A stretch of 64,000 bases of DNA from Chiloscyllium plagiosum. Lineage: Eukaryota. This document shows positions 2,110 to 49,422 of this stretch, one piece after another. The stretch spans positions 3,189,881-3,253,880 of the forward strand of contig NC_057758.1 in assembly GCF_004010195.1 (NCBI RefSeq). The letters are read 5' to 3'. Under the pieces are notes generated by a model, which saw only the letters and a list, made by a program, of their open reading frames with translations, was not told the origin of the DNA and did not search any database. A program made the translations under genes and the position numbers. The first letter of the stretch is position 1. Every line of letters begins with the position of its first letter.

Positions 2110-5100
2110 AAATATAGGCGATACTCTGTTCACCACACAGGTGGCATGATTTGTTGGTTCCTTCACTGTCTTGGCTGCATATTAGGGTTGCGTTATATAT
2201 TTTTTTCGATGGGTTGGTCTGCAAAGGCCACAACGACCGTTAGTTTGATGATACACGTTATTGTTGCATTATTCGTATTAGTGACGTTTCTCCGTTGCAA
2301 GTTTCATCGTCTAGTGTGGATTACACACTTCTGCACAATGTTCTCGTGCAGCTGTCACTGATTTGCATCTGCAATTGTAAAATGCATTGTCAAATATCAT
2401 CATGTGTGGATTGTATAGGTAGTCATGCATTGGGGGAGCCGAAAGGTTAAACGTTAAATATGATATTGGGCAGCTGCATTTAAAATTGATTGTCTCAGAT
2501 GGGATGAAGGGCTAAAACTGTTGATGACACATGACAAGCTGCTTGACCTTGAACAACTTAACCTTGAAGGTCATAGATGATACCAGCAGATTTATTTCGT
2601 CCTGTAGCTAGTTCTGTACTGTCTGTTTTGAAACTGTGGAAGAAAGAGAGAGCTTCACTCAGAGAGAGCGTCTGAACTTGGACCAGGATCGCAAATGGTG
2701 CAGAGAACAAACCTTAGCCTCCAGACGGGTCCCTAACGGTCTGAATGGCTTGAGATTTTCTGCGTTTTTGGTGACTTTCAATTCATTCTTCCTATTTATA
2801 ATTATTAGTATTTAATTGACACCGTTATTTAACCAAATCGCTGTTGTTGAGAATTCTGTTATTGACATTTAACCGAAAAGAACTTACGATTCAAGACTTT
2901 CGTCTATCCGTGAATGATAAACAGTGCCTTTGATGCAGAGAAAATGAGAAGTGCAACCTTTCAAAGAACATGAGGGGGACGATAATTAAACCTGCTTCAA
3001 ACAGAATCAGGTGGTGTGGCATTCAATGAGGATCATAAAACTTCGATAACCAGTCAATATATTGTTAAATTCTATACTTATATGATTAAATCTCAGTCAT
3101 CTGTGTTAAAATCTGTATGTTGATATTGATGGTTTGCTAAGTCAGTAAACGTGCCAATCAGTTAGTCTTAGTATTCTGCACGGGGAAGATGATTATTCAG
3201 TATGGCAGAGTGCTGTCACTAAATCTGTGCATCTGCTTTAATTCGAGTAAAATGACGTGCCATGCTGAATATAATTCAAAAATGACAGAACTCCAGCAAG
3301 CACACAATCACATCAATTTGAAACAATCAACCACGCACAACAAATCTGAACGACAATTCTTGTCAGTAACAAAAGGTGACTGCTCTTCGGTGAGGTAGTA
3401 TGTTTTTGACAACTTTCCAACAAAATTAGATGTTGAGAAACCCCCAGTGATACCCTCGGGGACTTTCCTCATCGTGTTCTTGATTTTAAATAAATAAACG
3501 CAATAACATCGCATAAAAATGTAAGAAAGATTGTGCTCGAAACATTTGAGGCAGAGAGACATTTCTTCAGAAAAAAAAACAAAGATGAAGACTAAGTTTG
3601 GCAAAAGTAATATTATCATAGTGTTCATACAAGTGCCATACGATGTTAGAGAAAGTTAAACGAAGTCACCCGTTGTAAGCACTTTCCTGAACTCCAAATG
3701 TTGTAAAAGTGCTTAAATACGTTATTGCGAACAATTTGCACTGTGCTGTACATTTTCTCTGTGAAAGTGCTCTTTTACTTTACACTGCGCATAATATCTT
3801 GGAGTTTGCCACATATAGTCCAATGTGAGGACCATTTCTTGTTCGAGATGAATGAACCCGACATTGTTGGTGCTACACCCCAAAACGTTCTTATAACGGC
3901 ATAAGCTCATGCTGCATGGCACAGACCCTTTGGTCCAAATGGTTCACGACGACCATATTCCCAAACTAAACCGCTCGACTTGCCTGTGTTTGATCCATAT
4001 CCATATCCTTTCAAATCTTTCCTTTTCATTCACTAATCCAAATGTTTTTAAATGTTGTAACCGTCTCGGCATCCGTCACTCATTCCACACATGAACCACC
4101 CTCTGTATAAAAACGGTTGTTTCGTAACGATATCCAAAGAAGTAAATGATCTCTTCATTTGTCTCTCTGGTTTGCTTCACAGGCTATTTCCAGAATTAAC
4201 AGAGGTGACGATGCAACTCGATTTCTTAAAAAATGGTCGATATGCATATGAATTTTTTGAAGTTTAGCGTCTCTGTTCAATTTGATTGTAACATTCCAAA
4301 CAGTCATTGCCGTGTTTGTACAGTGATAGAACAATGCAAATTTCTACGCCCATCATCCCATACGGCTGTGAAAGGCTTGGATCACTGATGCAGCCCACTG
4401 TGACCTCTGGAAAAAGGGTCGAGCCCATGCGAATTTCAGGGTATGATGTAGCTTCCTTATTTTAGTACTACTCCAAACTGCCCCTCTTCGTTTCGGCAAT
4501 TCGGCGTTATATTTTAAACAAGAAATGAGAGTGAAGTGGCTCTATCATGGCCACCTCTTGCCAGTTAGAGTACTGACAAGAGGTGACACATGCATGGCCC
4601 ATGAAATATTCAGAGCAGCATTCTATGGTCAAGAAGACAATCACCACAATCAGTCTATATGGACAATGCCCAGCTCAACTGAAAATCGTAGCTCCAAAAT
4701 TGAATTTTGTCGGATCCGCAGAAAAGTTTCAGTCTCACAGTATTGTTTCCTTTCTCAACTTGTTCTAGTTCTTTTAGAACTTGATTTCCTGTTTGACCTG
4801 CACATCAGAAATGATACGTTTCTGTGCACCATTTAGGCTCTTCTTCTCTCTGAATAGTCCAAGCACCAGGCACCAGATCACACATCATCATGTTGACATA
4901 ACATCACATCATAAGATCATAGGAAATAGGCTGAGAAAATGAGCATTTAGCCCAACGACTCTGCTCAATCAATAACTGAAATCGTGACTTATGTATTAAT
5001 CCTCAGTTTGACTTTCTGCCTTTCTACCAGCAACGTTGAATCCAAGACTGTTTTATATTGAAGAAGACATCTGTTCATCTCGGCATTATGCATATAATGG

Positions 5101-5140
5101 CCAAGTATTCACAGTAGCAATGAATTCCAGATTCCCACCT
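2110..5140 (-). repeat. Old segmental duplication, copy A (inverted relative to copy B at ~25800-34310)
   Basis: Reverse complement aligns colinearly, e.g. GTTTCAAAACAGACAGTACAGAA, TGTCGTTCAGATTT, CATTTCTGATGT, AAACTTCAAAAAA; ORF-track peptides 4525..4836 and 26070..26375 share CFLSxLVLVLLxLDFLxDLxIRND. Confidence 0.85.
3687..3753 (-). pseudogene. Orphan degenerate exon 1 of a GPR139-like receptor (copy A)
   Basis: AAAATG TAC AGC ACA GTG CAA ATT GTT CGC ... TTT GGA GTT CAG|gaaagt; resembles the family exon-1 end (G-V-P-G|gtaagt) with indels and GT>GA donor loss. Confidence 0.5.
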
Positions 5141-5179
5141 TCTGTGGAATGAATGTCCTCCAAATCCTTTACTTCAATG

Positions 5180-5900
5180 ATTCTAGTTGAAGACAGTTCT
5201 CTTCCGAGATGACAGTGCCTCACGACTGCTCTTTTCTGTATCGCTTGATGTGACAGAAGTGTGCTCTGCTTCACCAGAGCGAGCTGCATATAACACAATG
5301 GGCACCATCTTTATCATGGATGGCGCTTCCCACCCAATCCTCCCCGCGTGCCAGAACAGTGTGCTTGATTCCCTTAGAGATACTGTTATGGACAATGCAT
5401 ATGTGAGAGGTGCGTTGATTCAGAGTCAGTTAGGTCAAAATACTTTTTTCTTGATGGTTCACTGTACACTTTCCACAATTTAGCTGCTTTGCATTTTTGC
5501 TTCAGTCTTCTCAGTCTGTGATTGTCCTGTGGAGACACTTTGGTGATAGACATTAATTACCACACGCTGTGTACCCTTTCCACCCTCAGTTCTTATCCAT
5601 TTTTTTGATCATCGAATAGATCTAGCGTTTCACTGAGGGATACTCCGTAGGACAATCGATGTCCATTAGTAGGATTTTCCTTGACATTCTTTGTTTGTAG
5701 CGCTACTATTGAGGAATTTCCGTGCAATTCGTTTTCAAACTTGATACAACAATGCCAGCACCATTGGCAGATCTGTTCTGCAGGTGGGACAGAATAGAGT
5801 TTGTGATTCCCTTCACATTGTTCATCAGCTCCCATTCTGTGAGTACGACGATGTCAGCCTATCGTCAAAATAGGAATAAAGTCTACAATATGGAAAGGAA
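5180..5900 (-). mobile_element. Highly decayed CR1/L2-type LINE fragments
   Basis: Weak ORF2-like remnants, no intact frame. Confidence 0.3.
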
Positions 5901-6329: not shown

Positions 6330-8356
6330 TTGAGGATAAAATAAAGGGTTTTTACAAATACATTAAGGACAAAAAGGTAACAAGCGAGAGAATATGGCCA
6401 CTCTAAGGTCAGCAAAGCAGCCTTTGTGTGGAGCCGCAGGAGTTGGGGGAGATACTAAACGAATATTTTGTATCAGCATTTACTCTGATAAAGGACATGG
6501 AAGATTTACAATGTAGGGAAATAGATGGTGACCTTCTTGCAAATGTCAATATTACAGAGGATGAAGTGCTAGTTGTATTGAAACGCTTAAAGGTGGATAA
6601 ATCCCCAGGACAAGAGCAGGGAAGCTAGGGAAGTGAATGCTGGGCCTCTTGCTGAGATATTTGTATCATGGACAGCCACAGGTGAGGTGCCAGAAGATTG
6701 GAGGTTTGCTAACGTGGTGCCACTGTTTAAGAAGGATGGTATGGACAAGCCAGGGAACTATAGATTATTTACAGTGCGGAAGTAGGGCCTTCGGCCCAAC
6801 AAGTCCACACTCTCTGAAGAGCAACCCACTTCCCTACATTTAGCCCTTCACCTAACACTACGGGCAATTTAGCATGGCTAATTCACCTCACCTGCACATT
6901 TTTGGAATGTGGGAGGAAACCCAAGCAGAAACCCACGGAGAACGTGCAAACTGCACACAGTTGCCTGAGGCGGGAATTGAACCTGAATCTCTGGCACTGT
7001 AAGGTAGCAGTGCTAACTGCTGTGCCACCGTGCGTCCACGTTGTTGGAGGATGCAATCTTAAGGGACAGGATGTGCATGTAATTGGAAAGCCAAGGACTG
7101 ATTAGGGATAGTCAACGCGAATTTGCGCGTGGGAAATCATGTCTCACAAACTTGATTGAGTTTTTTGAAGAAGTAATAAAGAGGATTAATGAGGGTAAAG
7201 CGGTAGATGTGATCTATATGGACTTCACTAATGCGTTTGACAAGTTTCCCCTTGGTAGACTGGTCATCAAGTTTAGATCTCACGGACTATAGGGAGAACT
7301 AGGTATTTGGAGACAGAACTGGATAAAAGGTAAAAGACAGAGGGTGGTGGTGGTGGAGGATTGTTTTTCAGCCTGGAGGCATTTGACGAGTGTAGTGCCA
7401 CAAGGATCGGTGCTGAGTCCTTAAATTTTCATCATTTATATAAAGGATTTGGATGCGAGCACAAGAGGTATAGTTAGCATGTTTGCAGATTACACCAAAA
7501 TTGGAGGTGTAGTGGATAGCGAAGAAGGTTACCTCACATTGCAACAGGATCTTGATTAGATGGGCCCATGGGCTGAGAAGTGACAGATAGAGTTTAATTC
7601 GGGTAATTGTAAGTGCCTTCGTTTTGGGAAAGCAAATCTTAATCGGACATACACAGTTAATGGTAAGGTCTTAGAGAGTGTTGCTGAACAAAGCGACCTA
7701 GAACTGCAGGTTCATAGTTCCTTGAAGGTGGAGTCGCAGGTAGATAGGATAGTGAAGAAGGCGTTTGGTATGCTTTCTTTCCTTTATTGATCAGAATATT
7801 GAGTACAGGAGTTGGAAGGTTATATTGCGGCAGTACAGACACTCGTTAGGCCACTGTTGGAATATTGCGTGTAATTCTGGTCTCTATCCGACCGGAAAGA
7901 TGTTGTGAGACTTGAAAGGGTTCAAAAAAGATTTACAAAGATGTTGCCAGGTATGGAGTTTTTGAGCTATAGGGAAAGGCTGAACAGGCTGGTGTGTTTT
8001 CCGTGGAGCGTCGGAGGCTGAGGGGTGACCTTATAGAGGTTTACAAAATTACGAGGGGCATGGATATGATAAATAGACAAAGTCTTTTCCCTGGGTGGCG
8101 GAGTCAAGAACTAGAGGGCATATGCATACAGTGAGAGGGGAAAGATATAAAAGTGATCTAAGCTCAACGTTTTCACACAGTGGGAATGGAATGAACTGCC
8201 AGAGGAAGTGGTGGAGGCTGCTACAATTGCAACATTTAAGAGGCATTTGGATGGGTGCTGCCAGGTGGGACATCATTGAGTTGGGATATCTGGTCGGCAT
8301 GGACGGGTTGGACCAAAGGATCTGTTTCCATGCTTGCACATCTCTATGACTCTATG
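6330..8356 (+). mobile_element. 5'-truncated CR1 LINE (ORF2 RT to 3' tail), SINE inserted
   Basis: KGFYKYIK, VDKSPG, GKSCLTNLIEFFEEV, VDVIYMDF..AFDK, PQGSVL; ends CTCTATGACTCTATG; stops and frameshifts. Confidence 0.92.
6761..7037 (-). mobile_element. HE1/V-type tRNA-derived SINE
   Basis: Reverse complement: GCACGGTGGCACAGC..TTAGCACTGCT head, GTTCAATTCCC B box, GGCCGAAGGCC tail; same family as 56946-57232. Confidence 0.9.
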
Positions 8357-10660: not shown

Positions 10661-11554
10661 CTTAATTGATCATGCACTCGAATGAGTGCAGGGCAAGTTT
10701 ACAATATGCCATTATGGCAACATCTTAGTTACAGGATACTTTGTGTGCAGAATACGTTAGTATTTGTTCCAGACTGGATGGAATGATTTTAACAAATCAC
10801 CATAAAAGTTAAAAAATTAGAAGTGGGATTGCTGCCAATATTTCGTGCAGGCCCCATCCCTTCCAAATCATTTTTCCTGCAGCTGCCCTGTTAGTCAGTG
10901 AATGAGTTTTCTTATTCTTTGTCACTGGCAGCGTGCAGCCTTCAGACTGCCTGAGCCAAGTCATAATATAACGGCTTCAAACTTGGAGGCATTTCTTTCA
11001 GTCCCCAAAGGCGTCGCATCCGTCCTGAACTTGCCAGGGCCCATAAATCCACATGCTGGCCTCTACTCTGGGACTCAGCTCTGGGACTCGCAACCGCCGT
11101 GCCGACCTTGCCTTGGACTCACCTGGACTCATATCCCTACGTCGGCCTGACGAAGTACTCAACCTCCGGGACTGCCATGGGGACTTGCGAGCTTTACACC
11201 AGTCTGGCCTCTGATGGGCGTGCACTCACCTCACAGCACTGGCTTGGCATGTTTACTCACCTGTGGAACTGGCCACGTGACGATCTCCTATTTCTTTCGT
11301 TCATCTTCGAGTAAGAAAAAAAGAGATCAAATGAAAATGAGACGGCGCAGCAGTCCAATCCTGCCAATATTGCATATTTATGGAGACAAGTTTCTGCTTC
11401 ACTTTGGCGATGGACTGCTGCCAATATTTCGTGCAGGCCCCATCCCATCCAAATCATTTTCCCTTCACCTACACGTAAACTGTCCTGTTAGTCAGTGAAT
11501 GAGTAATCTATCGTTTCAGTTCCCATTTGACAATGTTGGTGTAGAGCAGTCGGA

Positions 11555-18677: not shown

Positions 18678-18689
18678 TATAAATATAAA
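18678..18689 (+). promoter_or_regulatory. Tandem TATA boxes of the GPR139-like gene
   Basis: TATAAATATAAA ~75-85 nt upstream of ATG 18764; the paralogue has TATAAA at 49428-49423. Confidence 0.55.
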
Positions 18690-18763
18690 TGCCGTTTCAT
18701 TGGACTGGCCATGACACGTCAGAGTATTTTACATCTGACAGAAATCATTTACTGCTCCACAAA

Positions 18764-20239
18764 ATGGGGAAGCCTGCAATTCTGCTGGTGAAAGAGATAT
18801 ACTACCCGTTGCTTGCATCTGTTGCTGTTCCCGGTAAGTCGATTCATTTTTAACTGACATTTCCTCATTAATCTGTTCAGAGATGCTTCACACGCCACCG
18901 CAACAGGTCGGATCTCATCCAGGGTTTCTCTGTCCAGGGACAGGGGAACGAACATGACACCCCAATAGAACCTCGTGCGCCGTTACAATTTCTGTGTATT
19001 GATCCCTGCCTTCTCTCATCTTGTTAATTCAGTTAATTAAGTCAAGTCACCATTTTATCTTGTTGCAAAGTTCCATGGTATTAACTGTATGGACTACTGA
19101 TCAATCTTGCTTCACATCTCTGCATTCACTTCATCTTGCTGGTGTGATCATAATGTTCCTGAAACATTTTTGGAATGTTTTGTTATCGCATACAAACTGA
19201 TCTCAATGCCAGTTAATTAAATACTTTTCGTATGCTGTTAATCAGATGCATTGACTCACATAATTGTATATCATTTGAATCAAGAATTGAAATTTTATTC
19301 AGGTTTTTTTTCTCTCTCATAGGAAACTTGGCCACAATTCGGATTCTTTCACAAGGAAAGTGTGGCCTTTCCAACTGTGTCACTGTTTATATGTTCGCTA
19401 TGGCAACGACAGATCTACTGGTCCTAATCAACAATGTAATATTCTACCATATCTTCAGTTATCACTTTCCTTTTTCGTTCCTGTCCCATACTCCTCGTTG
19501 CAGAGTCATTATATATCGGACTGCTGTCACTCCCGATTTATCTGTTTGGTGCGTTGTCTCCTTCACATTTGACCGATTTGTAGTAATTTGCTGCCAGGGG
19601 TTTCAAGCAAAGTATTGTACCAAAAGAACGTCGATCACTCTAATAATGACTATGACAGTTGTGATCGTATTGAAGGAAATTCCAGTTTTGTTTGCTTATG
19701 AACCTCAGCAAATTATTAACGACTTGCCATGGGGCTGCCAGTCAAGTGAAGCTTTTTTTTCGTCTTCTGCAGGGATTGGATTTGTCTGGTTTTACAGTGC
19801 CACTGTGGTTTGGATTCCATTTGCTCTGATTGTCTTGTGCAATTCAATAATTATCAAACGTATTGTACAGGCAAATAGAACCCGCTTTGCTCTCCGGAGT
19901 TCCAAGTGTGGAAATCAATGTGATTCAGAAATGGAAAACCGCAGAAAGTCCATCATTTTATTATTCTCGATAACAGTAAGTTTTATTGTGCTCTGGTCGA
20001 CGGTTGCTGTGGGGTTGTGTGTTACCAAACTGACAAATAGCGTTTATTACCGTGGCAAGTTCACAAACCCTGATTTTATCGCCATGGAAATGGCAGATAT
20101 GTTGAAGTATTTTAGTTGTTTTCTAAACCCGTGTATTTATGCAGCGACACAGAGCAAATTTAGAGCAGAGCTGAAAAATATGGCAAGATTTTCGTGTATA
20201 TTATTTCAGAGACAGTTTTGTCAGAAAACTGTAAAATGA
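18764..20239 (+). CDS. Probable G-protein coupled receptor 139-like class A 7TM receptor; join(18764..18833,19323..20239), 328 aa
   Basis: Exon 1 MGKPAILLVKEIYYPLLASVAVP-G|gtaagt; acceptor tctctcatag|GA in phase 1 giving PGNLATIRILSQGKCGLS; MATTDLL (TM2), FTFDRF (TM3), PWGC (ECL2), EMENRRKSIILLF, NPCIY (TM7); no stops. Confidence 0.9.
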
Positions 20240-20874
20240 ATTTATTCCAACAAATGGCTGTGCCCAATGAACGTTTCATTTCACGTCTCTTTCAAACATA
20301 AACATTCTGTGTTTTTGTGTAAAAATGAAACATGATTGATTTCTGTATTCATGTAACATGGATGTCCCTCAACTTTTTTCATGTGGGTATTTTCCTGGGT
20401 TTTTGTCGAGTAAATGAAACCTACTATATTAAAACTGCGCACCCTTCAATCAAAGACCGAAGATAATCTGATGTTTATGGACTTCAACTTCAATGTGGAA
20501 AACTAAGGGTTTCATTGCAGCCATTGAGAGTAAAGACATAAATTTGAAAAGACCGTCAACCGAGTTTCATTAGTACAAAGCAAAGTTACAATATGCCCAG
20601 ATATCTTGGTAATTTCGTCATACTTTACTTCAGAATATTGTCGGGAGTGGGCACATTGTGAGAGAGAGCTCATCAATGAGAAAGTTGACACGAATCTGTT
20701 CACACGACTGATGTTGTGTAGAGGAAGCAGTCCACATGCAGTCCATCAATGTAACACCTCACTTCTTCGGTCTTGGACATTTCTACAATTAAACCATCAA
20801 GCTCATTAAAACTATTATCTCTTACCAATCTTGATTAGTACAACATAAGTTTTAAGGACACGATAAAAGTATAA

Positions 20875-21632: not shown

Positions 21633-21690
21633 TGCGTGTGTGTGTGTGTGTGTGTGTGTGTGGTGTGCGTGTGTGTGCGTGTGTGTGTGT
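21633..21690. repeat. (GT)n microsatellite, imperfect
   Basis: Read directly. Confidence 0.9.
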
Positions 21691-25795: not shown

Positions 25796-27301
25796 CAAAA
25801 CAATGGGAATCTGGAATGCCTTACTGTTGTTGTAGCGTAGCCTTTATGCGCATTCAAGACCGAGGCGACCATATTTCTTTTTTAATAAAATCAGACTTGG
25901 ATTCAAAGTTTATGTTGGAAAAATAAGTAAAATGAAACTGAGGGTTATTAGATAATCGCGATTTCATAGTTGGGGGGCTGAATGGTCATCTTCTCATCCT
26001 ACATCGTATGATATTTTGGTATAAACTTATGTCACACGATAATGTGTTATCTGCTGCCTGGTGATTGGACTATTCAAAGAGAAGAGTTTTCTGTGAGGTG
26101 CTCAGCAGGCAATCATTTCTGATGTAAAGGTCCACCAGAAAATCAAGTTGTAAAAGAACCAGAACAAGGTAAGAAAGAAAACAACAATGTGAGAGTGACT
26201 CTTCTTCACATGCAGCAACATCCAATTTAGGAGCAAAAAGTTTCTGTTGAACTGAGCTCAGCTTTGCCGACAGAGACTCTTTGTGGCGATTTTCCTCTGG
26301 GCCATAGGGTGCTGCTCCGAATCTTTCCAGGGCCCTGACACGATACATGTCACGTCTTGTCTCTGTATTTCCCACTTGTCAATGCCTTGGCTCTGACACA
26401 GCAAGTAGCAGCCATGATAGAGCGATATCACTGTCATTTCTAATCCAATGTACAACTGCGAAATGCCGAACCGAAGAGGGACACTTCGGAATAGAATTGA
26501 ATTAAAGAAAGAAACTGCTCTGTGCAAGGAAATTCACATGGACTAGGTCTTCTTTCTAGAGGTCAACGCTGCCTGTGACAGTGATAAAGGCCTTTCACAA
26601 CCACATGCGATTATGGGAGTAATGATCGCTATTCTTCCACCACTGTGCAAGTTCAGCGACAACGGTTTGAATGATACAATCAGTTAACAGAAACTGTAAA
26701 CTTCAAAAAATGCACATGTACATCGAAAATCTTTCTTTTAGAAGTCGAATTATATTGATATCTCTGTCAATTCTGAAAGTCGCTTCCATAATAAATTCGG
26801 AAGATAATTGAGGAAATGATTTATTCCATTGGCGAACGTCAAGAGGACTTCTTTTTTACACAGAGTGTGATTCTTGTATGAAATGAAATAGCAGTGCAAG
26901 TGCAGGATGCAGACACAACATTGAAAAGACATTTAAATCAGTATATCCAAATGATACGTTTAGGCAGATATGGACCAAACTCAGGCAAGTGGACCGAATT
27001 TAATTTGGGACTGTGTTCGTCGTGACGAGTTGGACCAAAGAATCTGTGTCATGCTGTGTGACTCTATTACTTTATTAAAAGGTTGACAAACATAGCAATA
27101 CAATGTAAGGTTCATCCAGCACAAGCAAAGTATGTTCCTCTCATTGGTCCATATGTTACAAACTCCGAGAACCTTTTGCAGTGCAAAGCAACACAACCCA
27201 TCCATAGTGAAAATTCATAATAGAACATAGAACAGTACAGCACAGAACAGGCCCTTCAACCCACGATGTTGTGCCGACCACTGATCCTCATGTATGCACC
27301 C

Positions 27302-30035
27302 TCAAATTTCTGTGACCATATGTATGTGGAGGAGTCTCTTAAATGTCCCCAATAAACCTGCCTCCACAACTACTGCTGGCAACGTACTCCATGCTCTCAC
27401 AACTCTGCGTGTAAAGAACCCGCCTCTGACATCCCCTCTATACTTTCCTCCAACCAGCTTCAAACTATGACCCCTCGTGTTAGTCATTTCTGCCCTGGGA
27501 AATAGTCTCTGGCAATCGACTCTATCTATGCTTCTTATTACCTTGTATACCTCAAATAGGTCCCCTCTTCTCCTCCTTTTCTCCAATGAAAAAAGTCCGA
27601 GCTCAGTCAACCTCTCCTTATAAGATAAGACCTCCAGCCCAGGCAGCATCCTGGTAAACCTCCTCTGAACCCGCTCCAAAGCATCCACATCTTTCTTATA
27701 ATAGGGCGACCAGAACTGGAAGCAGTATTCCAAGTGCGGTCTAACAAAAGTTTTATAGAGCTGCAACAAGATCTCACGACTCTTAAACTCAATATCCCTG
27801 TTAATGGAAGCCAAAACACCATATGCTTTCTTAACAACCCTGTCCACTTGGGTGGCCATTTTAAGGGATCTATGCACCTGCACCCCAAGATCCCTTTGTT
27901 CCTCCACACTACCAAGAATCCTATCCTTAATCCTGTATTCAGCTTACAAAATGCATCACCTCACATTTATCCAGGTTGAACTCCATCTGCCACCTCTCAG
28001 CCCATCTCTGCATCCTGTCAGTGTCCCGCTACAGCCTACAGCAGCCCTCTATACTGTCAATGACACCTCCAACCTTTGTGTCATCTGCAAACTTGCTGAC
28101 CCATACTTCAATCCCCTCATCCAAGTCATTAATAAAATTTACAAACAATAGAGGCCCAAGGACAGAGCCCTGTGGAACACCACTCACCACAAACGTCCAG
28201 ACAGAATATTTTCCTTCTACTACCACTCGCTGTCTTCTGTTGGCCAGCCAATTCTATATCCAGACAGCTATGTACCCCTGAATCCCATTCCTCCTGACTT
28301 TCTGAATGAGCCTACCATGGGGAACCTTATCAAATGCCATGCTAAAGTCCATATACACCACATTCACAGCTCGACCCTCATCAAATTTTCTAGTCACATC
28401 CTCAAAGGACTCGATAAGGTTTGTGAGGCATGACCTTCCCCTCACAAAGCCGTGTTGACTGCACTTAATCAAACCATGCTCTTCCAGATGGTCATAAACC
28501 TTATCCCTCAGAATCCTTTCTAACACCTTGCAGACGACAGACGTGAGGCTTACTGGTCTGTAATTGCCGGGGATTTCCCCATTTCCTTTCTTGAAGAGAG
28601 GAATTACATTTGCCTCTCTCCAGTCCTCAGGTACGACTCCAGTGGAGAGTGAGGATGCAAAGATCTTCGCAAGTGGCGAAGCAATTGCATTTCTCGCTTC
28701 CCAAAGCAGCCGATGACAAATCTAGTCCGGGCCTGGCGACTTGTCAATCGTAATGTTTGACAAAATTTTCAGCACATCAGCTTCCTCTATCTCTATCCAT
28801 TTCAGCATGCACACCTCCTCTTCAAAGGTTCCATTCACTACAAAGTTCGTTTCTTTCGTAAAGACAGAACCAAAAAAACTCATTTAGGCCTTCCCCTACC
28901 TCCTCAGACACCACACAAAAATTCCCTATGCTACCCCTGATCGGGCCTACTCTTTCTTTGACCATTCTCTGATTCCTCACATAAGTGTAAAATGCCTTTG
29001 TGTTCTCCCTAATCCGTTTGGCCAAGCCTTTCTCTTGCCCCCTCCTGGCTCTCCTCAGACAATTTTTAAGCGCCTCCCTTGCCTGCCTGTAATCCTGTAG
29101 AGCTGAGCTTGACCCTAGCTTCCTCCACCTTACGTAAGCTGCCTTTTTCCTTTTGACGAGAAGCTCCACTGCTCTGGTCATCCAAGCTTCCTTTATCTTA
29201 CCACTTCTTGCATGTCTCAGAGGGACATATTTATTCATCACTTGCAACAACTTTTCCTAAAACACAGTCTCCACATGTCTATAGTGCCTTTACCATGGAA
29301 CAACTGCTCCCAGTCCATGTTTCCTAACTCATGTCGAATCGCATCATATTTTCATCTTCCCCAATTAAATATCCTCCCATTTTGCCTAATCCTCTCCTTC
29401 TCCATAGCTATGTAGAATGTGAGGCAGTTGTGGTCACTATCACCAAAATGCTCTCCCACCACAAGATCTGATACCTGCCTCTGTTCATTGCCGAGCACCA
29501 AGTCTAGAATGGTCTCTCCCCTCGTCGGCCTGTCAACGTACTGAGTTAGGAAACCCTCCTGAACACACCTTACAAAAACAGTTCCATTCAAATTTTCTGC
29601 TCGAAGGAGGTTCTAATCAATATTGGGAAAGTTAAAGTCACCCATTACAACAACACTACTACGTCCACACTTTTCCAAAATCTGCCGAGCTATGCTTTCT
29701 TCCATCTCTCTGCTGCTATTGGGGGGCCTGTAGTAAACCCCTAAAGAGGTGAATGCTCCCTTGCTGTTCCTAATTTCCACTCATACTGACTCGGTAGGCA
29801 GATCTTCCTCGACAATGGAAGCTTCTGTAGCTGTGATACCCTCTCTGATTAGTAGTGCTACACCCCCTCCTATTTTCCCCCTCTCTATTCTTTTTAAATG
29901 CTCTAAACCCTGGAACATCCAGCAACCATTCCTGCCCCTGAGAAACCCATGTCTCTGTTATGGCCACAACATCGTAGCACCAGTACTGATCCATGCTCTA
30001 AGTTCGTCACTTTTATTCCTGATACTCTTTGCGTT
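27302..30035 (-). pseudogene. CR1 ORF2 (APE endonuclease + reverse transcriptase), frameshifted
   Basis: DVVAITETW, ILDLVLGNE, SDHN, GRSCLTNL, YMDFSMAFDKVPH, GVPQGSVLGPLLF, KFADDTK, LYKTFVRPHLEYC. Confidence 0.92.
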
Positions 30036-30158
30036 AAAGCAAACACACTTCCTTGCCAGGAAAATCCTTCCCACTAGCTGGTCTACCTATTGCTACTGCC
30101 TCATCTGCATCAACTCTCATCTCCGGTGTACAGCTCAGGTTCCCACGCCCCTGCCATA

Positions 30159-31092
30159 CTAGATTAAACCGTCTCGAACTACTCGTGGAAAACTTCCACC
30201 CAGGACATTGGTCCCCTTCCAATTCAGATGCAACCAGTCCTTCTTGTACAGGTCCCACCTTCCCCAGAAAGCATCCCAATTATCTACATATCTGAAGCCC
30301 TCCCTCCAACACCAGCTGCGCAGCCACGTATTAAGCTGCGCCCTCTCCCTGTTCCTCGCCTCGCTATCTCTTGGCACCAGTAGTAAACTAGAGAACACTA
30401 CTCTGTTCGTCCTGCTTTGCAGTTTCCATCCTAACTCCCTGAAATCACTTTTTATATCTTCGATCCTTTTCCTGGCTATATCATTAGTGCCAATATGTAA
30501 CAGGATTTCTGGCTGTTCGCCCTCCCCTTTTAGAACCTTATACACCAGATCGGAGACGTCCCGGACCCTGGCACCAGGGAGGCAACTTACCTTCCGGGAA
30601 TCCCGATCCTGACCACAAAATCTCCTGTCAATTCCCCTAACTATCGAGTCCCCTATCACGAGTACTTTTCTATTCTTCCCCCTTCCCTTCTTTGCCACAG
30701 TGTCAGGCTCAGTGCCAGAGAACTGACTGCTATGGCTTTCCTCTGGTAGGTCATCCCCTCAGCAGTATCCAAAACGGTATACGTATTGCTGAGGGGAATG
30801 TCCACAGGGGACCTCTGCACTGTCTGACTGTCCCCTTTCCTCCCCCTAACTGTAACCCATTTATCCTTGTCCTGAGCCTTAGGAGTGACCAACTCCCGGT
30901 AACACATCTCAATTACCCCCTCAGCCTCCGAATGATCCATAGTTCATCCAGCTCCAGCTCCAATTCCCTAACACGGTTTTCAAGGAGCTGGAGTTGGGTG
31001 CACTTCCCACAGATGTAGCCAGCGGAGACGTGTGCCTTGTCTTCCACCTGCCACATTCTGCAGGAGGAGCAAGCAACTGCCCTAGCATCCAT
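30159..31092 (-). pseudogene. CR1 ORF1 (zinc finger, coiled coil, SGNH/GDSL esterase), frameshifted
   Basis: MDARAVACSSCRMW...YICGKCTQLQLLENRVRELELELDEL; VIGDSIVRG, HIGTNDI, DWLHLN. Confidence 0.9.
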
Positions 31093-32892
31093 ACCCGATA
31101 TATATGGTCACTGCTTTCCTTCCCGGCTGCCCATCTGGTCCTCGTCACTTCCCCCGCTGCTCCCGCTCCTTCTGTGAAAGGGAAATCACCGCTGTCCGCT
31201 ACCAGTGAGTATTTTTTTTAAAACTGCCTTACCTTAGCTGCAGTCTTCCGTGTTCGTCTTACCTCCGCTGCTGCTCGCACTCAAAGTCGTACAATAATAA
31301 TATTGTACGAATTGTTAGAATTTTTAAAAAACATCCTTACGATAATTGGTGCTCCTGGGAAGTGATTTTCAGGTACAATATTATTCATTTTTCTCAATGC
31401 AGTTGCTTCTGATATTTACAGTAAGATCATATAGCGATTGTTGCATATGATTTTTGGAACACCACAATATTATTACTTTTACCGAATCAATTCTTAATCT
31501 TTTTTTTTGTAAAGTAATGTCTCCCCGACTCAATTGATTCAAGCTGCAATTTTCGAGATTTTTAAATATGATGTTGTTGCATTCAGTGTAACGTTTCGTC
31601 CTGTAAAACCAACAACCTGACGAGTAATCTCCCTGAGGGTAGCTATTACTTAACTTTTATCAATATCAGTGTTGACAAAAATGGACTGATTTACTGAAGA
31701 GTAGTGACATTTCTACTGATGGGAACTGTCGTTCAGATTTATTGTGTGTGCGAAGATTGGTTCAATCCGATGATTGTGTGCTTGCTCGAGTTTTGTCATT
31801 TTTTAATCGTATTCGGCGTGGATCATCATGCTACTCTAATCTAAGCAGACGCATTGATTCAGTAGCAGCGCGTTCTCGTACTGAATAATCTTCCGGGAGC
31901 AAACACGAAGAACAATTGAGTGGCACTACAGTACTTCAGGAAACAATCAATACCAACATAGAGATAATAAAACAGATGATTGAGATTTCTTAATGTCATA
32001 TAGATGCAGCCTAACAAGGTGTAAAGTGGTGGTTGAAGCTTAATTAGCCTCAACCAAATGCACATGACTTGATTCTTTTTGCATTGGCTCCATTACCTTC
32101 TGCCTCAGTTCTCCCTCAGTTTCTGTCAAAGATTGCCCGTCTCTTATTCTGTTTTCAGGACCCAAGGCAATACTCACCATTCATGACTAAATCTATGTCG
32201 AGAATCACAATTTATATGCAAGCAATTTTATTTCCATTCTCAGTTAATTACAGTTGAGATAAATTTCAGCAAAGGCGATTTGTTCAAATATTAATTAATA
32301 ATAACGCGAAAAATAAGAGTAGCAAATGGAAAAAAGAGGAGGAAAAGGAACAACTCACATGCCATTCTGCCCGTCGGTCGTCACTTCATTCCACGGCTGA
32401 TCTGAAGACTAAGGTTTGCTCTTCGCTGCATTAGCGATTCTGGAACAAGTTGAAGTCCCTCTCTTGGGAAAATTCTCGCTCTGTAAAAGTGTTTCAAAAC
32501 AGACAGTACAGAAACAGCTACGGATCAAAACCCAGCTGCTGGTACCGACCTCAGCCAGCAAAACAACAATTTGTCAGCAGTCGTTGAAAATTATGCAGCT
32601 TGTTGAGTCTCAGCAAAATGTTTCACCCTTTACCCATCTTAGAAACACTGTTTTCAATGCAGCTTTTTAACATCATCATTAACCTTTAGCTCTTCGGCCT
32701 GTCCAGTAGAGGCTCATCCGATACAGTGCACAGTGATGATATTTGTTAGTATATTTTACAATTGCAGATGCATGACAGCTGCATGAGTAGGCTTCATAAA
32801 AATCGGTAACCAACATTAGATGATAAAAAATGGAATGAAAATAAACATCACCAACACGAACAATCCAATAATAACGTTTATCATCAACTTAA

Positions 32893-34167
32893 CGTCCAAG
32901 AGGTTTATTTGTAAACACTAGCTTGCGGAACACAGTCTCTTCGACAGGTGCTTGTGGAGCAGGGCCATAAGACGCAGAATTTGTTGCAAAAACATCAGAG
33001 TCACATGAGGCTGAGATATATTAAACAACTTAGAATAAGTCTTTCATCTTTTACAATGGATTTCGTAGCTTTGGTTAGTTAATACGTCGATCCCAGTACT
33101 TCAGATTTTCTACAAAAGACTCTATGACAATCGATGAGTGGACACCGCATCACATTCACAAGGCAAAGGTGTTCTATCACAGCCGGGGAACACTTCAGCA
33201 TATCCTGACCGTTTGGCCTCGGACGTTCAGCTGAACATCCTCGAATCGGATGCTTTTCCTGTTGATTTAAGGAAAAGCAACAAAGCAAAGTGGCTGAGCA
33301 GAGGATGATTGCCAAGCTTGGTACCATTGTGAGGGCCTCAACCGGGATCTTGCATTCATGTCACACCGCAGGTGACCCTTCTGCACTGTACACTTTCTCG
33401 CACAAACACAAGCATGCGCCCACACACATAGACTCTCAACTACGACATACTCACACATTAACACAGACCCGTTCTGATTCACAAGTTCTCTCCACACTGC
33501 GCATACATACACACCTCACACATACCCATGCACACACTCGCACACAGGCTTATGCACAAACTTATCACACACAAACTTGGCAAGCTTACAATCATACATA
33601 CTCACACTCTCTCACATGCATATACATGCACACACTCACTCTGTCTCTACTGCGTGCACATACACATAAATTTATGGAAGTGATCTGTATTTACAGTGTT
33701 ATTTTTTTGCTCAAACGTACGTAACCTACTTTCAATCCGTTTGAGATTCATTAAATCACACTTTAGAAATAAAACTAGTCAGACTCAAGGTTGGGAAAGA
33801 GACAGAATTTAACCTTACACCTTTAATGCATTGTCTGAGCTCAGAACACACCTTTTGTTAGAAAATCTGAAGTTCTCTGAGAATGTGATTTAAAAGGAGC
33901 TCTGGGATTTACAATTTAACAACCAGAAACTAGGAAACCCTTTTTGAAAGATGAAAATTTTACACTAAGTTTGTTTAGTTTGTTCCAGCCGCATGACGTT
34001 GTAAATTTTTGCTATAAGTTCCGTGTCTTAATGTCCTACTCCACAACCACCGATGAAGAGGCAGCGATTCGAAATCTAGTGCTTACAATAAAGCTGTTGC
34101 ACAATAACTTGGTGTTGTGAGATTTTTAACTTTATCTACCCCAGTCCAAAACTGGCTCCTCCAACTG
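32893..34167 (+). mobile_element. Truncated Penelope-like element with inverted 5' repeat, GIY-YIG C-terminus and CA-rich tract
   Basis: MSGHR..GEHFS..KVAEQRMIAKLGT..GLNRDL; 32895-33130 inverted relative to ~33890-34100; flanks ATCAACTTAA (32883) and ATCAAATTAA (34168); absent from copy A. Confidence 0.8.
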
Positions 34168-34479
34168 ATCAAATTAAAGAACGTAGTGGCCTTTGTGGAC
34201 CAACCCCGAAATAGAATGATGTATATCCCAAACTTAAGGTACGATCAAGGCCGTGAAGGAACAAAGAAGTCATGCAATAGGACTGAGGTGACCAGAATAT
34301 CATATACCAGAGATCTGCAGAGATTTTCAGTCCATTGGACATAAGCTAAACATGTTTTAAAATAGAAGGCAAACATTCCTGTTGGATTCAGGCCAAACTT
34401 GCTTGATTGTTCTGTTTCTAAGATGACCCAATTTTTTAAGATTACTTGATGACTCATTCTAGACACTTTCTCTGTATTT

Positions 34480-35275
34480 GTCCAAATGCAATATTCTGTT
34501 TGCTCCCTTAAAACAACTGATTATTTTTATGCTAGGAGAACAACACTTGCTATCCTCCATTCATCTGGCAGTGCTCATAAAAATCACATCTGGTCCAGGG
34601 AACGTATCTATTTTTACATTTTCCAGAATTGCCTCATCCTTGTGAGCCTTGATCCCATCTTGTCTTGGAGTGGTATCTTCGTATTGTCCTCGACGAGATT
34701 GTCTTTTTCTTGCGTGAATAGTGAAAAAAAGCATTCATTTAGAACTTTCCCAATCTTCTCCAACGCCACGCATAACTTCCCACTAATATTCTTGATTAGC
34801 CCTAATATTAGTCTAGTCATTCTTGTATTTATGATATATCGAGAGAAAGCTTTAAGGTTTTCCTTGATCCTATCTTCCAATGACGTCTCATGTCCCCTCC
34901 TGACTCTCTTTAGGTCTTACCTGGCTAACTTGTAACTCTCAAGCGCCTTAAACGAGTCATCACATCTCATCGTCACCTAAATCTTCTTCTTCCACTTGAA
35001 AAGGGACCCTACTTCCTCAGTAATCCACGGCTCTCGAGCTCAACAACTTTCTCCCTGCCGGACCTGTACGTACTTGACAAAGAATAAGCTTCACATTTCA
35101 ATTGTGCCTAATTCCTGTAGTTTCATTCACCATCCCATGCATCATAAATCTTATCTAATCGCATTGTAATTTCCTTTCCACCAGTGGTAACTCTTGACCT
35201 GTGTAATATACATATCTCTTTCTATCATGAAAGTAACATAACCAAATTTAGATCACTATCATTACCCAGTGCCAA
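34480..35275 (-). mobile_element. CR1 ORF2 fragment
   Basis: RIKENLKAFSRYI..KVLNECFFSLFTQE; SDLN (SDHN-like). Confidence 0.8.
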
Positions 35276-35367: not shown

Positions 35368-35369
35368 CA

Positions 35370-41885: not shown

Positions 41886-42192
41886 CAGATTATACTACAG
41901 TGTGGAAACAGGCCCTTCGGCCCAACAAGTCCACACTGACCAGCCGAAGCGCATACCACCCATACCCCTACATTTACCCCTCACCTAACACTAGGGTCAA
42001 TTTAGCATGGCCAATTCACCTTACCTGCACATCTTTGGACTGTGGGAGGAAACCGGAGCACCCGGAGGAAACCCACGCAGACACGGGGAGAACGTGCAAA
42101 CTACACACATTCAGTCGCCTGAGGTGGGAATTGAACCCGGGTTTCTGGCGCTGTGAGGCAGCAGTGGTAACCACTGTGCCACCGTGCCGCCC
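41886..42192 (-). mobile_element. HE1/V-type SINE
   Basis: Full-length match to 56946-57232 in reverse. Confidence 0.93.
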
Positions 42193-42474
42193 AAATGTCT
42201 CGTTATTTCTTACTTGATAGTCGATTCAAGTATTTTCCCCAAGCTAGAAGTTAAGTCACTGAGCTTATAATTAGCGGGCTTATTTCTGCATTATTTTTAA
42301 AATAGTGGGGTCACATTTGCAGTTTTCCAATCTGCTACAATTGCTCCAGAGTCCCGAAACTTTTGGTAAATTAACAGAAGCACTTTTGTTATTTATTCCC
42401 CGATTTCAAACTGGGCCATGTGGCGTGTGTGCATTTATTCCCATTATCTTTCCTAGCACTACCTCTTTATTGGA

Positions 42475-46500: not shown

Positions 46501-46815
46501 GGCAATTATCAGCCTGGAGCTGAGGATCCATAGCAAGAACAATTTATGGAGGCTTTGGTAGTGTTATCTTCCAAATCTTCCAGACGGGCTGAGATTTATA
46601 TGCACATCTTTGATCCTCATTTAATACATCCACTGCTCTCCATGTGGTCTCCTCTACATCAGAATGATATGGCACACTGTCATCGTTTTTTTTTTATTTG
46701 CAGAGAATCATCCGCTCCATTGGAAGCATGTGCTGTATCACTTTATCGCTGAAGCAGTAATGTGGTCCACTGAGACTGCAGATCATAATCAATATTTGGA
46801 ACACATTCTTTTTTG

Positions 46816-47111
46816 ATTAGATTACTTAGTGTGGAAACAGGCCCTTCGGCCCAACAAGTCCATACCGACCCGCCGAAGCGCAACCCACCCATACCCCGAA
46901 ATTTACCCCTTCACCTAACACTACGGGCAATTTAGCATGGCCAATTCACATCTTTGGACTGTGGGAGGAAACCGGAGCACGCGGAGGAAATCCACCCAGA
47001 CGCGGGGAGAATGTGCAAACTCCACACAGTCAGTCACCTGAGGCAGGAATTGAACCCGGGTCTCTGGTGCTGTGAGGCAGCAGTGCTAACCACTGTGCCA
47101 CCGTGTCGCCC
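46816..47111 (-). mobile_element. HE1/V-type SINE
   Basis: Full-length family match. Confidence 0.93.
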
Positions 47112-47390
47112 ACTAGTTGTTGGCTTTTTTTGCCAAATATTATTGGAATACGACGTATGTCAAAGTCAAGTTTTTATTGACATACATAAAATGAAAAAAT
47201 GAAACAATGAGACTTGCGGCCATTCACATGCTAAGCTTCAAATGAATGATACATTAGTGGAGCTATCTGTTTTGTTTTCTGAGACAAGATATTAAAATTG
47301 ATCGAATCCAGATGTATGCAGCCCCTACCAAGGATACGTAGTGTGTTGCTTTTCCAGCACAGACCAGGATAGATTGTTAATCATGTATAC

Positions 47391-47645
47391 TTTAAATTAA
47401 GGGGGGTTAGGTATAGGACAAATGTAAGGGGTAGGTTCTTTACTCAGCGAATCGTGAGTTCATGGAATGCCCTGCCAGTAGCAGTGGTGGACTCTCCCTC
47501 ATTATGGGCATTTAAGCGGGCATTGGATAGGCATATGGAGGATAGTGGGCTAGTGTAGGTTAGGTGGGCTTGGATCGGCGCAACATCGAGGGCCGAAGGG
47601 CCTGTACTGCGCTGTATTCTTCTATGTTCTATGTTCTATGTTCTA
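47391..47645 (+). mobile_element. Young 5'-truncated CR1 3' end inserted in the pseudogene exon 2
   Basis: (TTCTATG)n tail, CpGs retained, TATAC at 47386-47390 and 47646-47650. Confidence 0.9.
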
Positions 47646-48550
47646 TATACAGGTTCATTCATATAATATAGCGATACGTTTTCCACAAGACAGTGCTGAC
47701 ACAATTCCTTTCACCCATGCTGCCATCTAAGTGCAATATTTAATTTTCAGCTTCTGTTAACAAATGGCAACATAACGATCAAAGGTGAAAGCCACGGTTA
47801 ACAGGCAGAACTGTAAATGGCTGCAAAATTTACAGTTGCACGAAAACTGCAGATGGGTGTGATAGAGAGGAAACTGAATGGGAAATAAATTCCAGCGATC
47901 CGATTTAATATCAAGATCGTGACCAAAACCAGGAGATCGGTCACTGCCATAGATAATAAGTCATACATCCTGACAGGCCGCACCTTCTTTGCAATTGTAT
48001 GATAATTACTGCCAAGTTAGGTAAAACAGAAAGAAAGAGCAAAAACAGGGTTTTACTGTTTTCACTCCCTTTGTCTTACCGGACATTGTATGGATTTTAA
48101 TATTTAGAGATGTGATCTGATATGTCGACGGGAAATTCATATGGCTTCAATACAATCATTCGTGCAAAACATAAATAATTGCCAATAACATAACAACATA
48201 ATAAATCTTATGAGTGCGAACTGAGAACAGCATGAGTGAGAAAAGCTGCAATATATAGAATTCAACATGACAGCATTACATTGGCATAAAAACTGTCACA
48301 TGACCCATGAAATATAGAAGATGTACAAACATAAGAAAAAGGAACAAGGGTAAGTTACCCAGCCCTCTGCAACTGTTGCAATTACAAGTAAATTGGTACT
48401 CCACCTGATTTCAACTGTAACTTTACATTCCCACGTCTAACTACTTTCCTTAATACTCTGCTTCAACGGGCTGTTGAGACAGGAATTGCAAAGACTCGCA
48501 ATGCTGTACAAGAAATGAAAACCACTGCATATCTCTGAGGTTTGTACTCT

Positions 48551-48850
48551 GGCGGCACAGTGGCTCATTGTTTAGCACTGCTGCCTCCCAGCACCAGAAA
48601 TCTGCGTGCGATTCCCACCTTGGGCAACTGTCTGTGTGAAGATTGCACATTCTTCCCTGATTGCACAGGCTGCTACGGTTTCCTCCCACAAGCCACAGAT
48701 GTGCATGTTAGGTGAATTAGCCATGCTAACTTGTCTGTAGTGTTAGGTGCATCAGTTAAGGGAATGGGCCTGGGTGCGTTACTCTTTGAAGGGTTGGTGT
48801 GGACTTGTTGAGCCGAAGGGCCTGTTTCCATACAGCAGGGAATCTGATCA
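48551..48850 (+). mobile_element. HE1/V-type SINE in the pseudogene intron
   Basis: GGCGGCACAGTGGCTC head, GCCGAAGGGCCTGTTTCC tail. Confidence 0.88.
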
Positions 48851-49422
48851 CTCCGCTATTTTCGAGACATGATTCCTAATTATAGATTTTCCAATATGAA
48901 AAAATATATAATCATAGTTGAATTCTTTCAATAGGCAACCAGTTAAATCGACGCAGGATTCTACTTAGTTTAATCATGTCACGCTGACTCTAACAATGTC
49001 CAGCCTATCTATTGTTTCCTGATAGGTTAAGCCACTTTTTCCTCGTACTGGTACATTCTGAAATAACCTTGATTTGAGGGGATAACTTACAATACAAATT
49101 TCGCGAAATACTGACAGTAAACTGAAAATATCTATAGATTAAATTGGGTGCAATAATGTCTTGAATGGGTAATATATTACACTCGTTAAATTTAAAGGGG
49201 GGAATGGATGTTTGAAAGGGTGATAACTGCCACTGGAAAGAATGAGAACTGACATGTCTAGGCAACGATATGTGCACTACAACAACAAACATACTGGTCT
49301 ACCTGAAACTCTGTCAGTAGCAAAGTCTACATAAGAAATGGCAAACAGCAGACCTCTTTGTACCTCATGCATTTCGAACAGATGTTCTGCAGTGATTCAG
49401 AAATGCAGTGGAAAGTACTCAA

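What the first reader, a model, noticed from the sequence alone, without database searches (positions are those of the whole stretch)
3687..49372. Birth-and-death cluster of GPR139-like receptors: one intact gene, one pseudogene, two orphan first exons
Seen: four loci share the same design, a ~67-70 nt first exon ending in TM1 with a phase-1 donor; exon 1 is exactly 70 nt in both the intact gene and the pseudogene. They are highly diverged and lie in both orientations. Established: GPR139/GPR142 are single-copy aromatic amino-acid receptors in mammals. Inference: a very short N-terminus, clustering and rapid pseudogenisation resemble a chemosensory or immune-sensing receptor repertoire specific to cartilaginous fish, with unknown ligands.
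Basis: partly seen in the sequence, partly recalled or inferred. Interest (0 to 1): 0.7.

Follow-up and report, generated by a model that had tools for sequence, protein, structure and literature searches.

The report
Expanded shark GPR139-like receptor repertoire
This stretch of shark DNA holds one open-frame gene, one broken copy and two probable relics of a large cartilaginous-fish family of GPR139-related receptors whose predicted ligand pockets vary much more than those of their low-copy relatives, so they likely form an overlooked chemical-sensing repertoire.

Summary
The cluster is real, but weaker than described. Gene A (328 aa, two exons) has an open frame. B is a clear pseudogene. 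The two orphan first exons are probable relics only: neither has a GT donor, one is split by a 4-kb LINE, and they are one inverted duplicate, not independent genes.

Gene A is not the GPR139 orthologue. It belongs to an expansion of 1,130 clusters at 90% identity; all 139 clusters whose names I saw are chondrichthyan. Horn shark alone has at least 33, of which 21 lie on one contig. Two low-copy sister lineages exist in bony vertebrates.

Predicted pocket positions are hypervariable in the expansion (entropy 2.79 vs 1.98 bits; 0 of 5,000 permutations as high). They are conserved in both low-copy lineages, which keep a GPR139-like pocket. That pattern fits a repertoire for diverse ligands.

Tissue and ligands are untested. 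Ten literature searches found no paper describing the expansion. It is most likely a chemosensory-type repertoire; immune and reproductive roles remain open.

The parts
18764..18833 (+). Gene A exon 1, 70 nt, ends in TM1, phase-1 donor GTAAGT
   Evidence: rank 1 of 2,563 ATG starts
18834..19322 (+). Gene A intron, 489 nt, GT..AG
19323..20239 (+). Gene A exon 2 (TM1 to C-terminus and stop); open frame, 328 aa in all; Arg at TM3 3.31; nearest named proteins are two zebra-shark paralogues at 72-76%
18678..18690 (+). TATA-like run about 80 nt upstream of gene A's ATG (promoter role inferred)
   Evidence: sequence
20071..20553 (+). 483 nt skipped in one contig of run X3, removing TM7, helix 8 and the stop; likely a null allele of gene A, or a near-identical paralogue
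   Evidence: table 5
49303..49372 (-). Pseudogene B exon 1, 70 nt, donor GTAGAC; same subfamily as its exon 2 (P0160/P0163 type)
   Evidence: rank 2 of 2,563
47646..48020 (-). Pseudogene B exon 2, TM1-TM4: acceptor AC, frameshifts, 3 in-frame stops
   Evidence: (score 180 vs null maximum 23)
47386..47645 (.). LINE 3'-end fragment inserted in ECL2 of B
   Evidence: self-BLAST
47281..47385 (-). Pseudogene B resumes (ECL2 to start of TM5), then stops; no TM5-TM7 found downstream
3687..3753 (-). Probable relic first exon C, 67 nt, compensating frameshifts, donor GAAAGT (no GT); no exon 2 within the window
   Evidence: (rank 17 of 2,563); weak on its own
31289..31357 (+). Probable relic first exon D, 3' part; its first two bases lie at 27213-27214, across the LINE; donor GGAAGT (no GT); no exon 2 found
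   Evidence: (rank 3 of 2,563)
27215..31288 (-). Near-full-length decayed LINE (esterase-like ORF1, RT ORF2, tandem-repeat tail) inserted into D's start codon; CR1-type label is recalled
   Evidence: PF13472, PF00078
956..5137 (-). Segment holding C; inverted duplicate of 25804-34531
   Evidence: blocks of 65-71%; 72-76% over aligned columns
25804..34531 (+). Segment holding D; inverted duplicate of 956-5137, interrupted by the LINE and other repeats

Best explanation
Gene A is an open-frame member, and B a dead member, of a large clustered family of GPR139-related class A receptors in sharks, skates and chimaeras, whose predicted ligand pocket is hypervariable while the cytoplasmic half is conserved, so the family likely works as a chemical-sensing repertoire in which each paralogue would detect different small molecules or peptides from outside the body and signal through a shared, probably Gq-type, G protein. 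Shown: gene structure, family size and clustering, gene death by stops, frameshifts, splice-site loss and LINE insertion, low-copy sister lineages, and the contrast in pocket variability. Inferred: the ancestor had a GPR139-like pocket for aromatic amino acids (the amphibian/sturgeon sister keeps F3.33, W6.48, N7.39 and a basic 6.51); local duplication multiplied it and the pockets diverged; expression is in sensory or epithelial cells facing the environment (nose, taste buds, gut, skin). C and D are probably one dead first exon copied passively in an inverted duplication.
For: 1,130 clusters at 90% identity with E<=1e-3. Chimaera and skate members exist. 35 of 37 family rows form a starred clade, 95/95. 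Pocket entropy vs other extracellular-half positions: 2.79 vs 1.98 bits in 69 diverse members (0 of 5,000 permutations as high) and 1.59 vs 1.21 in 120 close members (p 0.023), with the intracellular half lowest (1.03, 0.70). The opposite holds in 119 TMEM183A-type sequences (0.71 vs 1.06, p 0.028; R6.51 in 118 of 118) and in 21 amphibian/sturgeon sequences (0.12 vs 0.57, 0 of 5,000 as low). R3.50 is kept in 120 of 120 and 69 of 69, and both disulfide cysteines in 120 of 120. The N-terminus is short, with a sequon in 1 of 80. Gene death is seen in this window and a possible deletion allele in run X3. Precedent: nematode srw, related to myosuppressin/FMRFamide receptors, expanded by birth and death as candidate chemoreceptors (PMC2576165 passages), and GPR139/142 share an origin with those receptors (PMC8514136 passages).
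Against: No tissue or ligand evidence exists for any member. Within one species (33 horn-shark clusters) the pocket excess is not significant (p 0.076). Sequences are related, so permutation values overstate independence, and pocket positions come from recalled class A numbering mapped by motif anchors, with no structure model. Pocket diversification also fits immune or endogenous ligands. In the catshark paper the 50 most specific genes of the brain-plus-olfactory library included no GPCR (PMC11979771 passage). Gene A may itself be impaired: Arg at 3.31, and 19 departures from conserved columns, second highest of 37 rows, though its two zebra-shark neighbours have 16 and 14. 1,010 of the 1,130 clusters were not listed. 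G-protein coupling is borrowed from GPR139.
Confidence: 0.5

Rival explanations
1. The family is an immune or irritant-sensing repertoire on leukocytes, granule cells or skin afferents, doing the job that MRGPR or formyl-peptide receptors do in mammals.
For: The same anatomy (short N-terminus, clusters, variable pocket, turnover) fits. Cartilaginous fishes lack MAS1 and its relatives (PMC8455134 passage).
Against: No GPR139-named entry in the 4 supplementary files of a shark immune single-cell atlas; this is weak, because members may be listed under locus ids. The low-copy sisters keep an amino-acid-type pocket.
Confidence: 0.2
2. The receptors read endogenous or mate-derived peptides in reproduction or neuroendocrine control, like the related invertebrate sex-peptide/MIP receptors.
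For: GPR139/142 share an origin with MIP/sex-peptide receptors, and GPR139 responds to ACTH/MSH peptides (PMC7318219 passage). The family keeps the TM3-ECL2 disulfide cysteines. Some catshark V2Rs are expressed in testis.
Against: Receptors for endogenous peptides are normally stable in copy number (nematode comparison); dozens of paralogues with turnover are hard to match to a fixed peptide set.
Confidence: 0.15
3. The expansion is mostly neutral: repeat-rich regions copy the gene, most copies drift or die, and only a few do anything.
For: Three of four loci here are dead; C and D look passively duplicated (exon no more conserved than flanks); gene A carries odd residues and possibly a deletion allele.
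Against: Variation is ordered pocket > other extracellular > intracellular, with R3.50 and the cysteines nearly invariant across members as far apart as about 40% identity; subfamilies span sharks, skates and chimaera.
Confidence: 0.12
4. Gene A is the shark GPR139 (or GPR142) orthologue with a few local copies.
For: Most relatives carry the automatic name 'probable G-protein coupled receptor 139'; human GPR139 is the family profile's best solved-structure match.
Against: Exon 2 alone gives no GPR139 match at E<=1e-3, whereas human and zebrafish GPR139 are 70% identical. Only 1 of 6 GPR139 pocket residues is kept. Bamboo shark has separate gpr139 and gpr142 genes.
Confidence: 0.01

Closest known systems
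GPR139 / GPR142
   Same: Best solved-structure match of the family profile (E 8e-18, next 5e-14); close TM1 and TM3 likeness; two exons, as reported for GPR139; W6.48.
   Different: Multi-copy; has C3.25 and an ECL2 cysteine, where GPR139 shows Asp at 3.25 (alignment); gene A keeps 1 of 6 pocket residues; shorter N-terminus; sharks have their own gpr139 and gpr142.
Non-mammalian GPR139-like orphans ('GPR210A/B', PMC6504862; 'Orphan 139-like', PMC5207463)
   Same: I find two low-copy lineages: a TMEM183A-named type in sharks, sturgeon, teleosts, coelacanth, amphibians, turtles and squamates, and an amphibian/sturgeon type that groups with the expansion at 89/87, unstarred. Both have the same short N-terminus and cysteines.
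   Different: Their pockets are conserved. The passages I read name no cartilaginous-fish expansion; PMC6504862 has 0 occurrences of 'shark' or 'cartilaginous'. Which GPR210 group matches which lineage was not verified.
Nematode srw chemoreceptor family
   Same: Derived from the same wider neuropeptide-receptor group; clustered birth-and-death expansions; proposed to sense environmental peptides; srw clusters appear among feature look-alikes.
   Different: An independent expansion in another phylum; the srw ligand proposal is itself speculative.
Vertebrate OR, TAAR, ORA/V1R, V2R, TAS2R, and MRGPR/FPR repertoires
   Same: Clusters, pseudogenes, variable pocket; size rivals the 40 catshark V2Rs and exceeds the 8 ORs.
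   Different: Unrelated subfamily; TM1 intron; no demonstrated sensory expression or ligand. The MRGPR/FPR comparison is partly from memory.

Membership tests
Class A (rhodopsin-like) GPCR | 7TM domain with R3.50, C3.25-ECL2 cysteine pair, N7.49/Y7.53 | tested here: met
   PF00001 on all 120 listed homologues; residues present in gene A
GPR139/142 subfamily (broad) | Closest characterised relative is GPR139 | tested here: met
   profile search of solved structures; same for the low-copy relative P0227
GPR139/142 subfamily (broad) | Groups with GPR139/142 in a tree | not testable with these tools
   no true GPR139/142 sequence came back under a usable id; trees lack them
GPR139 orthologue | High identity across vertebrates (70% human-zebrafish) | tested here: not met
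   no GPR139 match to exon 2 at E<=1e-3; benchmark
GPR139 orthologue | Pocket E3x32, F3x33, H5x43, W6x48, R6x51, N7x38 | tested here: not met
   gene A has T, A, Y, W, V, D: 1 of 6
GPR139 orthologue | Single-copy gene | tested here: not met
   separate gpr139 and gpr142 in bamboo shark
GPR139 orthologue | Conserved synteny | not testable with these tools
   no genome held; no other host gene recognised in the window
GPR210A/B | Orthology to the named coelacanth Ensembl proteins | not testable with these tools
   ids could not be fetched
Chemosensory receptor multigene family | Many clustered paralogues with gene birth and death | tested here: met
Chemosensory receptor multigene family | Hypervariable ligand pocket on a conserved signalling face | tested here: met
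   not significant within one species (p 0.076)
Chemosensory receptor multigene family | Positive selection at pocket codons | not testable with these tools
   no paralogue coding DNA was available
Chemosensory receptor multigene family | Expression in sensory cells | tested here: inconclusive
   laid no reads and counts as no test; supplement searches blank or limited to true gpr139/142
Chemosensory receptor multigene family | Activation by external chemicals | not testable with these tools
   needs a ligand screen

The most novel reading that the evidence does not exclude
Cartilaginous fishes have a chemoreceptor family of their own, built from the GPR139 lineage and as large as or larger than their V2R set. 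It is expressed in olfactory, taste or skin sensory cells and detects amino-acid-like or peptide cues, which would explain how sharks smell with only a handful of odorant receptors and would be a vertebrate parallel to nematode srw.
Probability: 0.3. Interest if true: 0.9.

Novelty: new variant of a known kind. Interest (0 to 1): 0.66.

Why it matters
Papers describe sharks as poor in GPCRs and odorant receptors (PMC8455134; PMC6368271). A family with dozens of paralogues per species, hidden under one automatic name, contradicts that picture. It supplies concrete candidates for in situ and ligand screens on how sharks sense chemicals. The conserved low-copy sisters in frog, salamander and fish give tractable handles on the ancestral ligand and on the GPR139 family generally. 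The window itself is an ordinary, mostly decayed corner of this family.

Tried and rejected
Expression: no RNA holder listed. Two single-cell runs gave 0 reads on 18300-22200 from about 2% and 6% of each run; they are one sample of unknown tissue, and the tool calls this no test. Depth spikes in X1 and X3 are not taken as copy number.

First-exon scans: searches had faulty pattern extraction (9 and 1 training peptides) and were discarded. The broad profile and DNA alignment to gene A's upstream region (B 428, C 168, D 125 of 3,173 windows) did not single out B, C or D. Combining exon and upstream scores gave ranks 4, 8 and 7 of 2,563. The subfamily profiles were chosen after seeing the candidates. 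The join of D was off by one base and was corrected. An exon-like hit at about 53934 lies in the antisense strand of a LINE and was rejected as chance.

Other blanks: no exon 2 relic for C or D and no 3' half of B (scores 16.5, 20.4 and 20.8 vs reversed-sequence maximum 23). No Rfam family. No genome held. No structure model was made. Earlier scan notes: none.

Literature: ten searches found no description of the expansion; 'GPR139-like' gave 0 papers and 'gpr139'+'shark' gave 4, of which I read passages of two. The library lacks most subscription papers. Supplements: that of PMC11979771 was unreadable and only 12 of 24 files of PMC8455134 were searched; both may hold counts or expression of this family.
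Full report
Observation. The window holds one long receptor frame. Gene A has a 70-nt first exon (18764-18833) with a phase-1 GTAAGT donor, a 489-nt intron and a second exon to the stop at 20239, giving 328 residues. Pseudogene B lies on the minus strand. Its first exon (49372-49303) is also 70 nt. Its second exon has AC where the acceptor AG should be, frameshifts, three in-frame stops and a LINE-end fragment in ECL2, and it ends near the start of TM5. A frameshift-tolerant profile scores B at 180 against a reversed-sequence maximum of 23, and finds no further exon 2 anywhere in the window. B's two exons point to the same subfamily, P0160/P0163, which differs from A's.

The orphans. C (3753-3687, minus, 67 nt) and D (27213-27214 plus 31289-31357, plus, 71 nt) occupy matching places in an inverted duplicate, 956-5137 against 25804-34531. 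A 4-kb LINE with esterase-like and RT frames splits D's start codon. Neither has a GT donor. Support is moderate. Scored from every ATG with three subfamily profiles plus a donor term, A, B, D and C rank 1, 2, 3 and 17 of 2,563, but those profiles were picked after seeing the candidates. A broad profile ranks B, C and D only 4,010, 1,225 and 106 of 127,824, and DNA alignment to gene A's upstream region is not significant. C and D are 76% alike in the exon and 72-75% in the flanks, so there is no sign of selection after the duplication. I read them as one dead exon copied passively. C's second exon could lie off the left end of the window.

The family. Exon 2 finds 1,130 clusters at 90% identity among 1,669 candidates; 120 were listed and all are elasmobranch. 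My tally: horn shark 33, Heptranchias 23, Pristiophorus 23, S. canicula 12, whale shark 8, S. torazame 7, zebra shark 6, C. plagiosum 3, white shark 2, and Mustelus, Cetorhinus and Amblyraja 1 each. By shared contig length, 21 horn-shark clusters lie on one contig, and all 12 S. canicula clusters lie on one. At 50% identity 88 representatives score below 1e-30. Nineteen further family clusters were named, all chondrichthyan, including chimaera and skates; that makes 139 named, and 1,010 clusters were not listed. The nearest proteins are two zebra-shark paralogues at 72-76%, so the source is probably a carpet shark (inference). Contigs of two DNA-like runs of one study cover the intron and show other first exons with different flanks (10 of 12 listed loose ends at 18758-18796).

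Relation to GPR139. Human GPR139 is the best solved-structure match of the family profile (8e-18), but exon 2 alone does not reach it at 1e-3. True orthologues are 70% identical from human to zebrafish (PMC7318219, passages). A supplement of PMC13689627 lists separate gpr139 and gpr142 for bamboo shark. Two low-copy relatives emerged. One, named after TMEM183A in some records, occurs in sharks, sturgeon, teleosts, coelacanth, amphibians, turtles and squamates, with no bird or mammal among the 120 of 145 hits listed; it is 29% identical to gene A. The other occurs in amphibians and sturgeon (21 of 25 hits). In a 57-row IQ-TREE, 35 of 37 family rows form a starred clade (95/95); all 37 group with the amphibian/sturgeon type at 89/87, unstarred and unresolved at the base. 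Twelve of the family rows were unnamed and labelled by assumption, and no true GPR139/142 was in the tree. So the expansion, not the lineage, is particular to cartilaginous fish.

Pocket test. I mapped 26 generic pocket positions (class A numbering, recalled; anchored on helix motifs) and compared their entropy with 41 other extracellular-half and 65 intracellular-half positions. Diverse family members (69): 2.79, 1.98, 1.03 bits, with 0 of 5,000 permutations as high. Close members (120): 1.59, 1.21, 0.70, p 0.023. Horn shark alone (33): 1.24, 0.97, 0.52, p 0.076. TMEM183A type (119 sequences under 400 aa, of the 120 listed): 0.71, 1.06, 0.68, p 0.028 in the other direction. Amphibian/sturgeon type (21): 0.12 vs 0.57, 0 of 5,000 as low. 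Of the six GPR139 residues that bind Trp and Phe, gene A keeps only W6.48. The amphibian/sturgeon type has F3.33 and N7.39 in 21 of 21, W6.48 in 20 of 21 and Lys at 6.51 in 21 of 21; the TMEM183A type has R6.51 in 118 of 118. Related sequences inflate these p values, and no structure model was made.

State of gene A. The frame is open and the core motifs are present, but Arg sits at 3.31 and gene A has 19 departures from conserved columns, second highest of 37 rows. One contig of run X3 reads Leu at that codon, and another skips 20071-20553, removing TM7 and the stop, while further X3 contigs cover that stretch. This fits alleles, including a null allele, but a near-identical paralogue is not excluded.

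How it most likely works. A GPR139-type receptor with an amino-acid-like pocket was multiplied by local duplication early in cartilaginous fishes. The cytoplasmic half stayed fixed and the pocket diverged, giving many tunings on one signalling output, while copies keep dying. The step from this pattern to sensing of external chemicals, the tissue and the Gq coupling are inferred. I give this 0.5, an immune or irritant role 0.2, a reproductive or endocrine role 0.15, mostly neutral copies 0.12 and orthology 0.01.

What is known. PMC6504862 (passages) names GPR210A/B as non-mammalian GPR139 relatives and does not mention sharks. PMC5207463 (passages) lists 'Orphan 139-like' in a table. PMC2576165 (passages) describes the srw parallel; PMC8514136 and PMC12208981, both passages, give the shared origin with invertebrate peptide receptors. 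PMC6368271 (abstract and section 5) counts 40 V2R and 8 OR genes in catshark. PMC8455134 (passages; 12 of 24 supplements) speaks of a paucity of GPCRs in cartilaginous fishes. PMC11979771 (passages; supplement unreadable), PMC10620051 and PMC12294341, all passages, gave nothing on this family. Supplements of PMC13188829 (8 files) and PMC11372145 (4 files) gave no match. Ten searches found no account of the expansion; the library misses most subscription journals, and the genes are already in public annotation under the automatic name.

Verdict. The cluster is a real, partly overstated sample of a large receptor expansion that I could not find described. It is a new variant of a known kind, interest 0.66; if it proves chemosensory (0.3), 0.9.

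Noticed in passing
P0227, P0274-P0391: A conserved GPR139-like receptor, named with TMEM183A in zebra shark and a frog, found from sharks to squamates and turtles; no bird or mammal among 120 of 145 hits listed; invariant R6.51 and aromatic 3.33. A good deorphanisation target; may be one of the GPR210 groups.
   Followed up: partly
P0207, P0400-P0419: A second low-copy relative in amphibians and sturgeon with an almost invariant GPR139-like pocket; nearest bony-vertebrate group to the shark expansion.
   Followed up: partly
P0254: A representative without a species name that groups with the vertebrate GPR139-like lineages at 100/100; I labelled it amphioxus from recall, not from a call.
   Followed up: partly
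window 20071-20553 and 19518: Run X3 shows a 483-nt skip and an Arg/Leu difference in gene A, plus five more exon 2 differences at 19819-19871 (three change the residue).
   Followed up: partly
window 18824-19333: High variation in gene A's intron between the window and runs X1/X3 (11 differences in one 565-nt contig); the 11 differences listed for the X1 contig all lie in the intron.
   Followed up: no
window 6756-7047, 22596-22807, 35289-35377, 39722-40044, 41887-42208, 46811-47123, 48551-48850, 49473-49800, 56941-57230, 58676-58780: At least ten copies of a roughly 300-nt SINE-like repeat, 70-87% alike; the elasmobranch HE1 label is recalled, not tested.
   Followed up: no
window 35700-39200 and 58184-58943: Decayed LTR-retrotransposon-like pol remnants (RT, RNase H).
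   Followed up: partly
window 32882-34114: An insertion bounded by inverted repeats in D's downstream region; 33113-33484 matches the non-receptor tails of two C22-subfamily gene models (P0147, P0152), possibly a Penelope-like element (label recalled; no Pfam match on the opposite-strand frame tested).
   Followed up: partly
window 10768-11001 / 11412-11761 and 12572-12746: Inverted-repeat pairs 82-93% alike, like non-autonomous DNA transposons.
   Followed up: no
P0001, P0002, P0016, P0059, P0172: Family members carry misleading automatic names (CCR6-like, allatostatin-A receptor-like, GPER1-like, GHSR-like, capa receptor-like), and many models have wrong N-termini fused to repeat sequence, so name-based counts will miss members.
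   Followed up: yes
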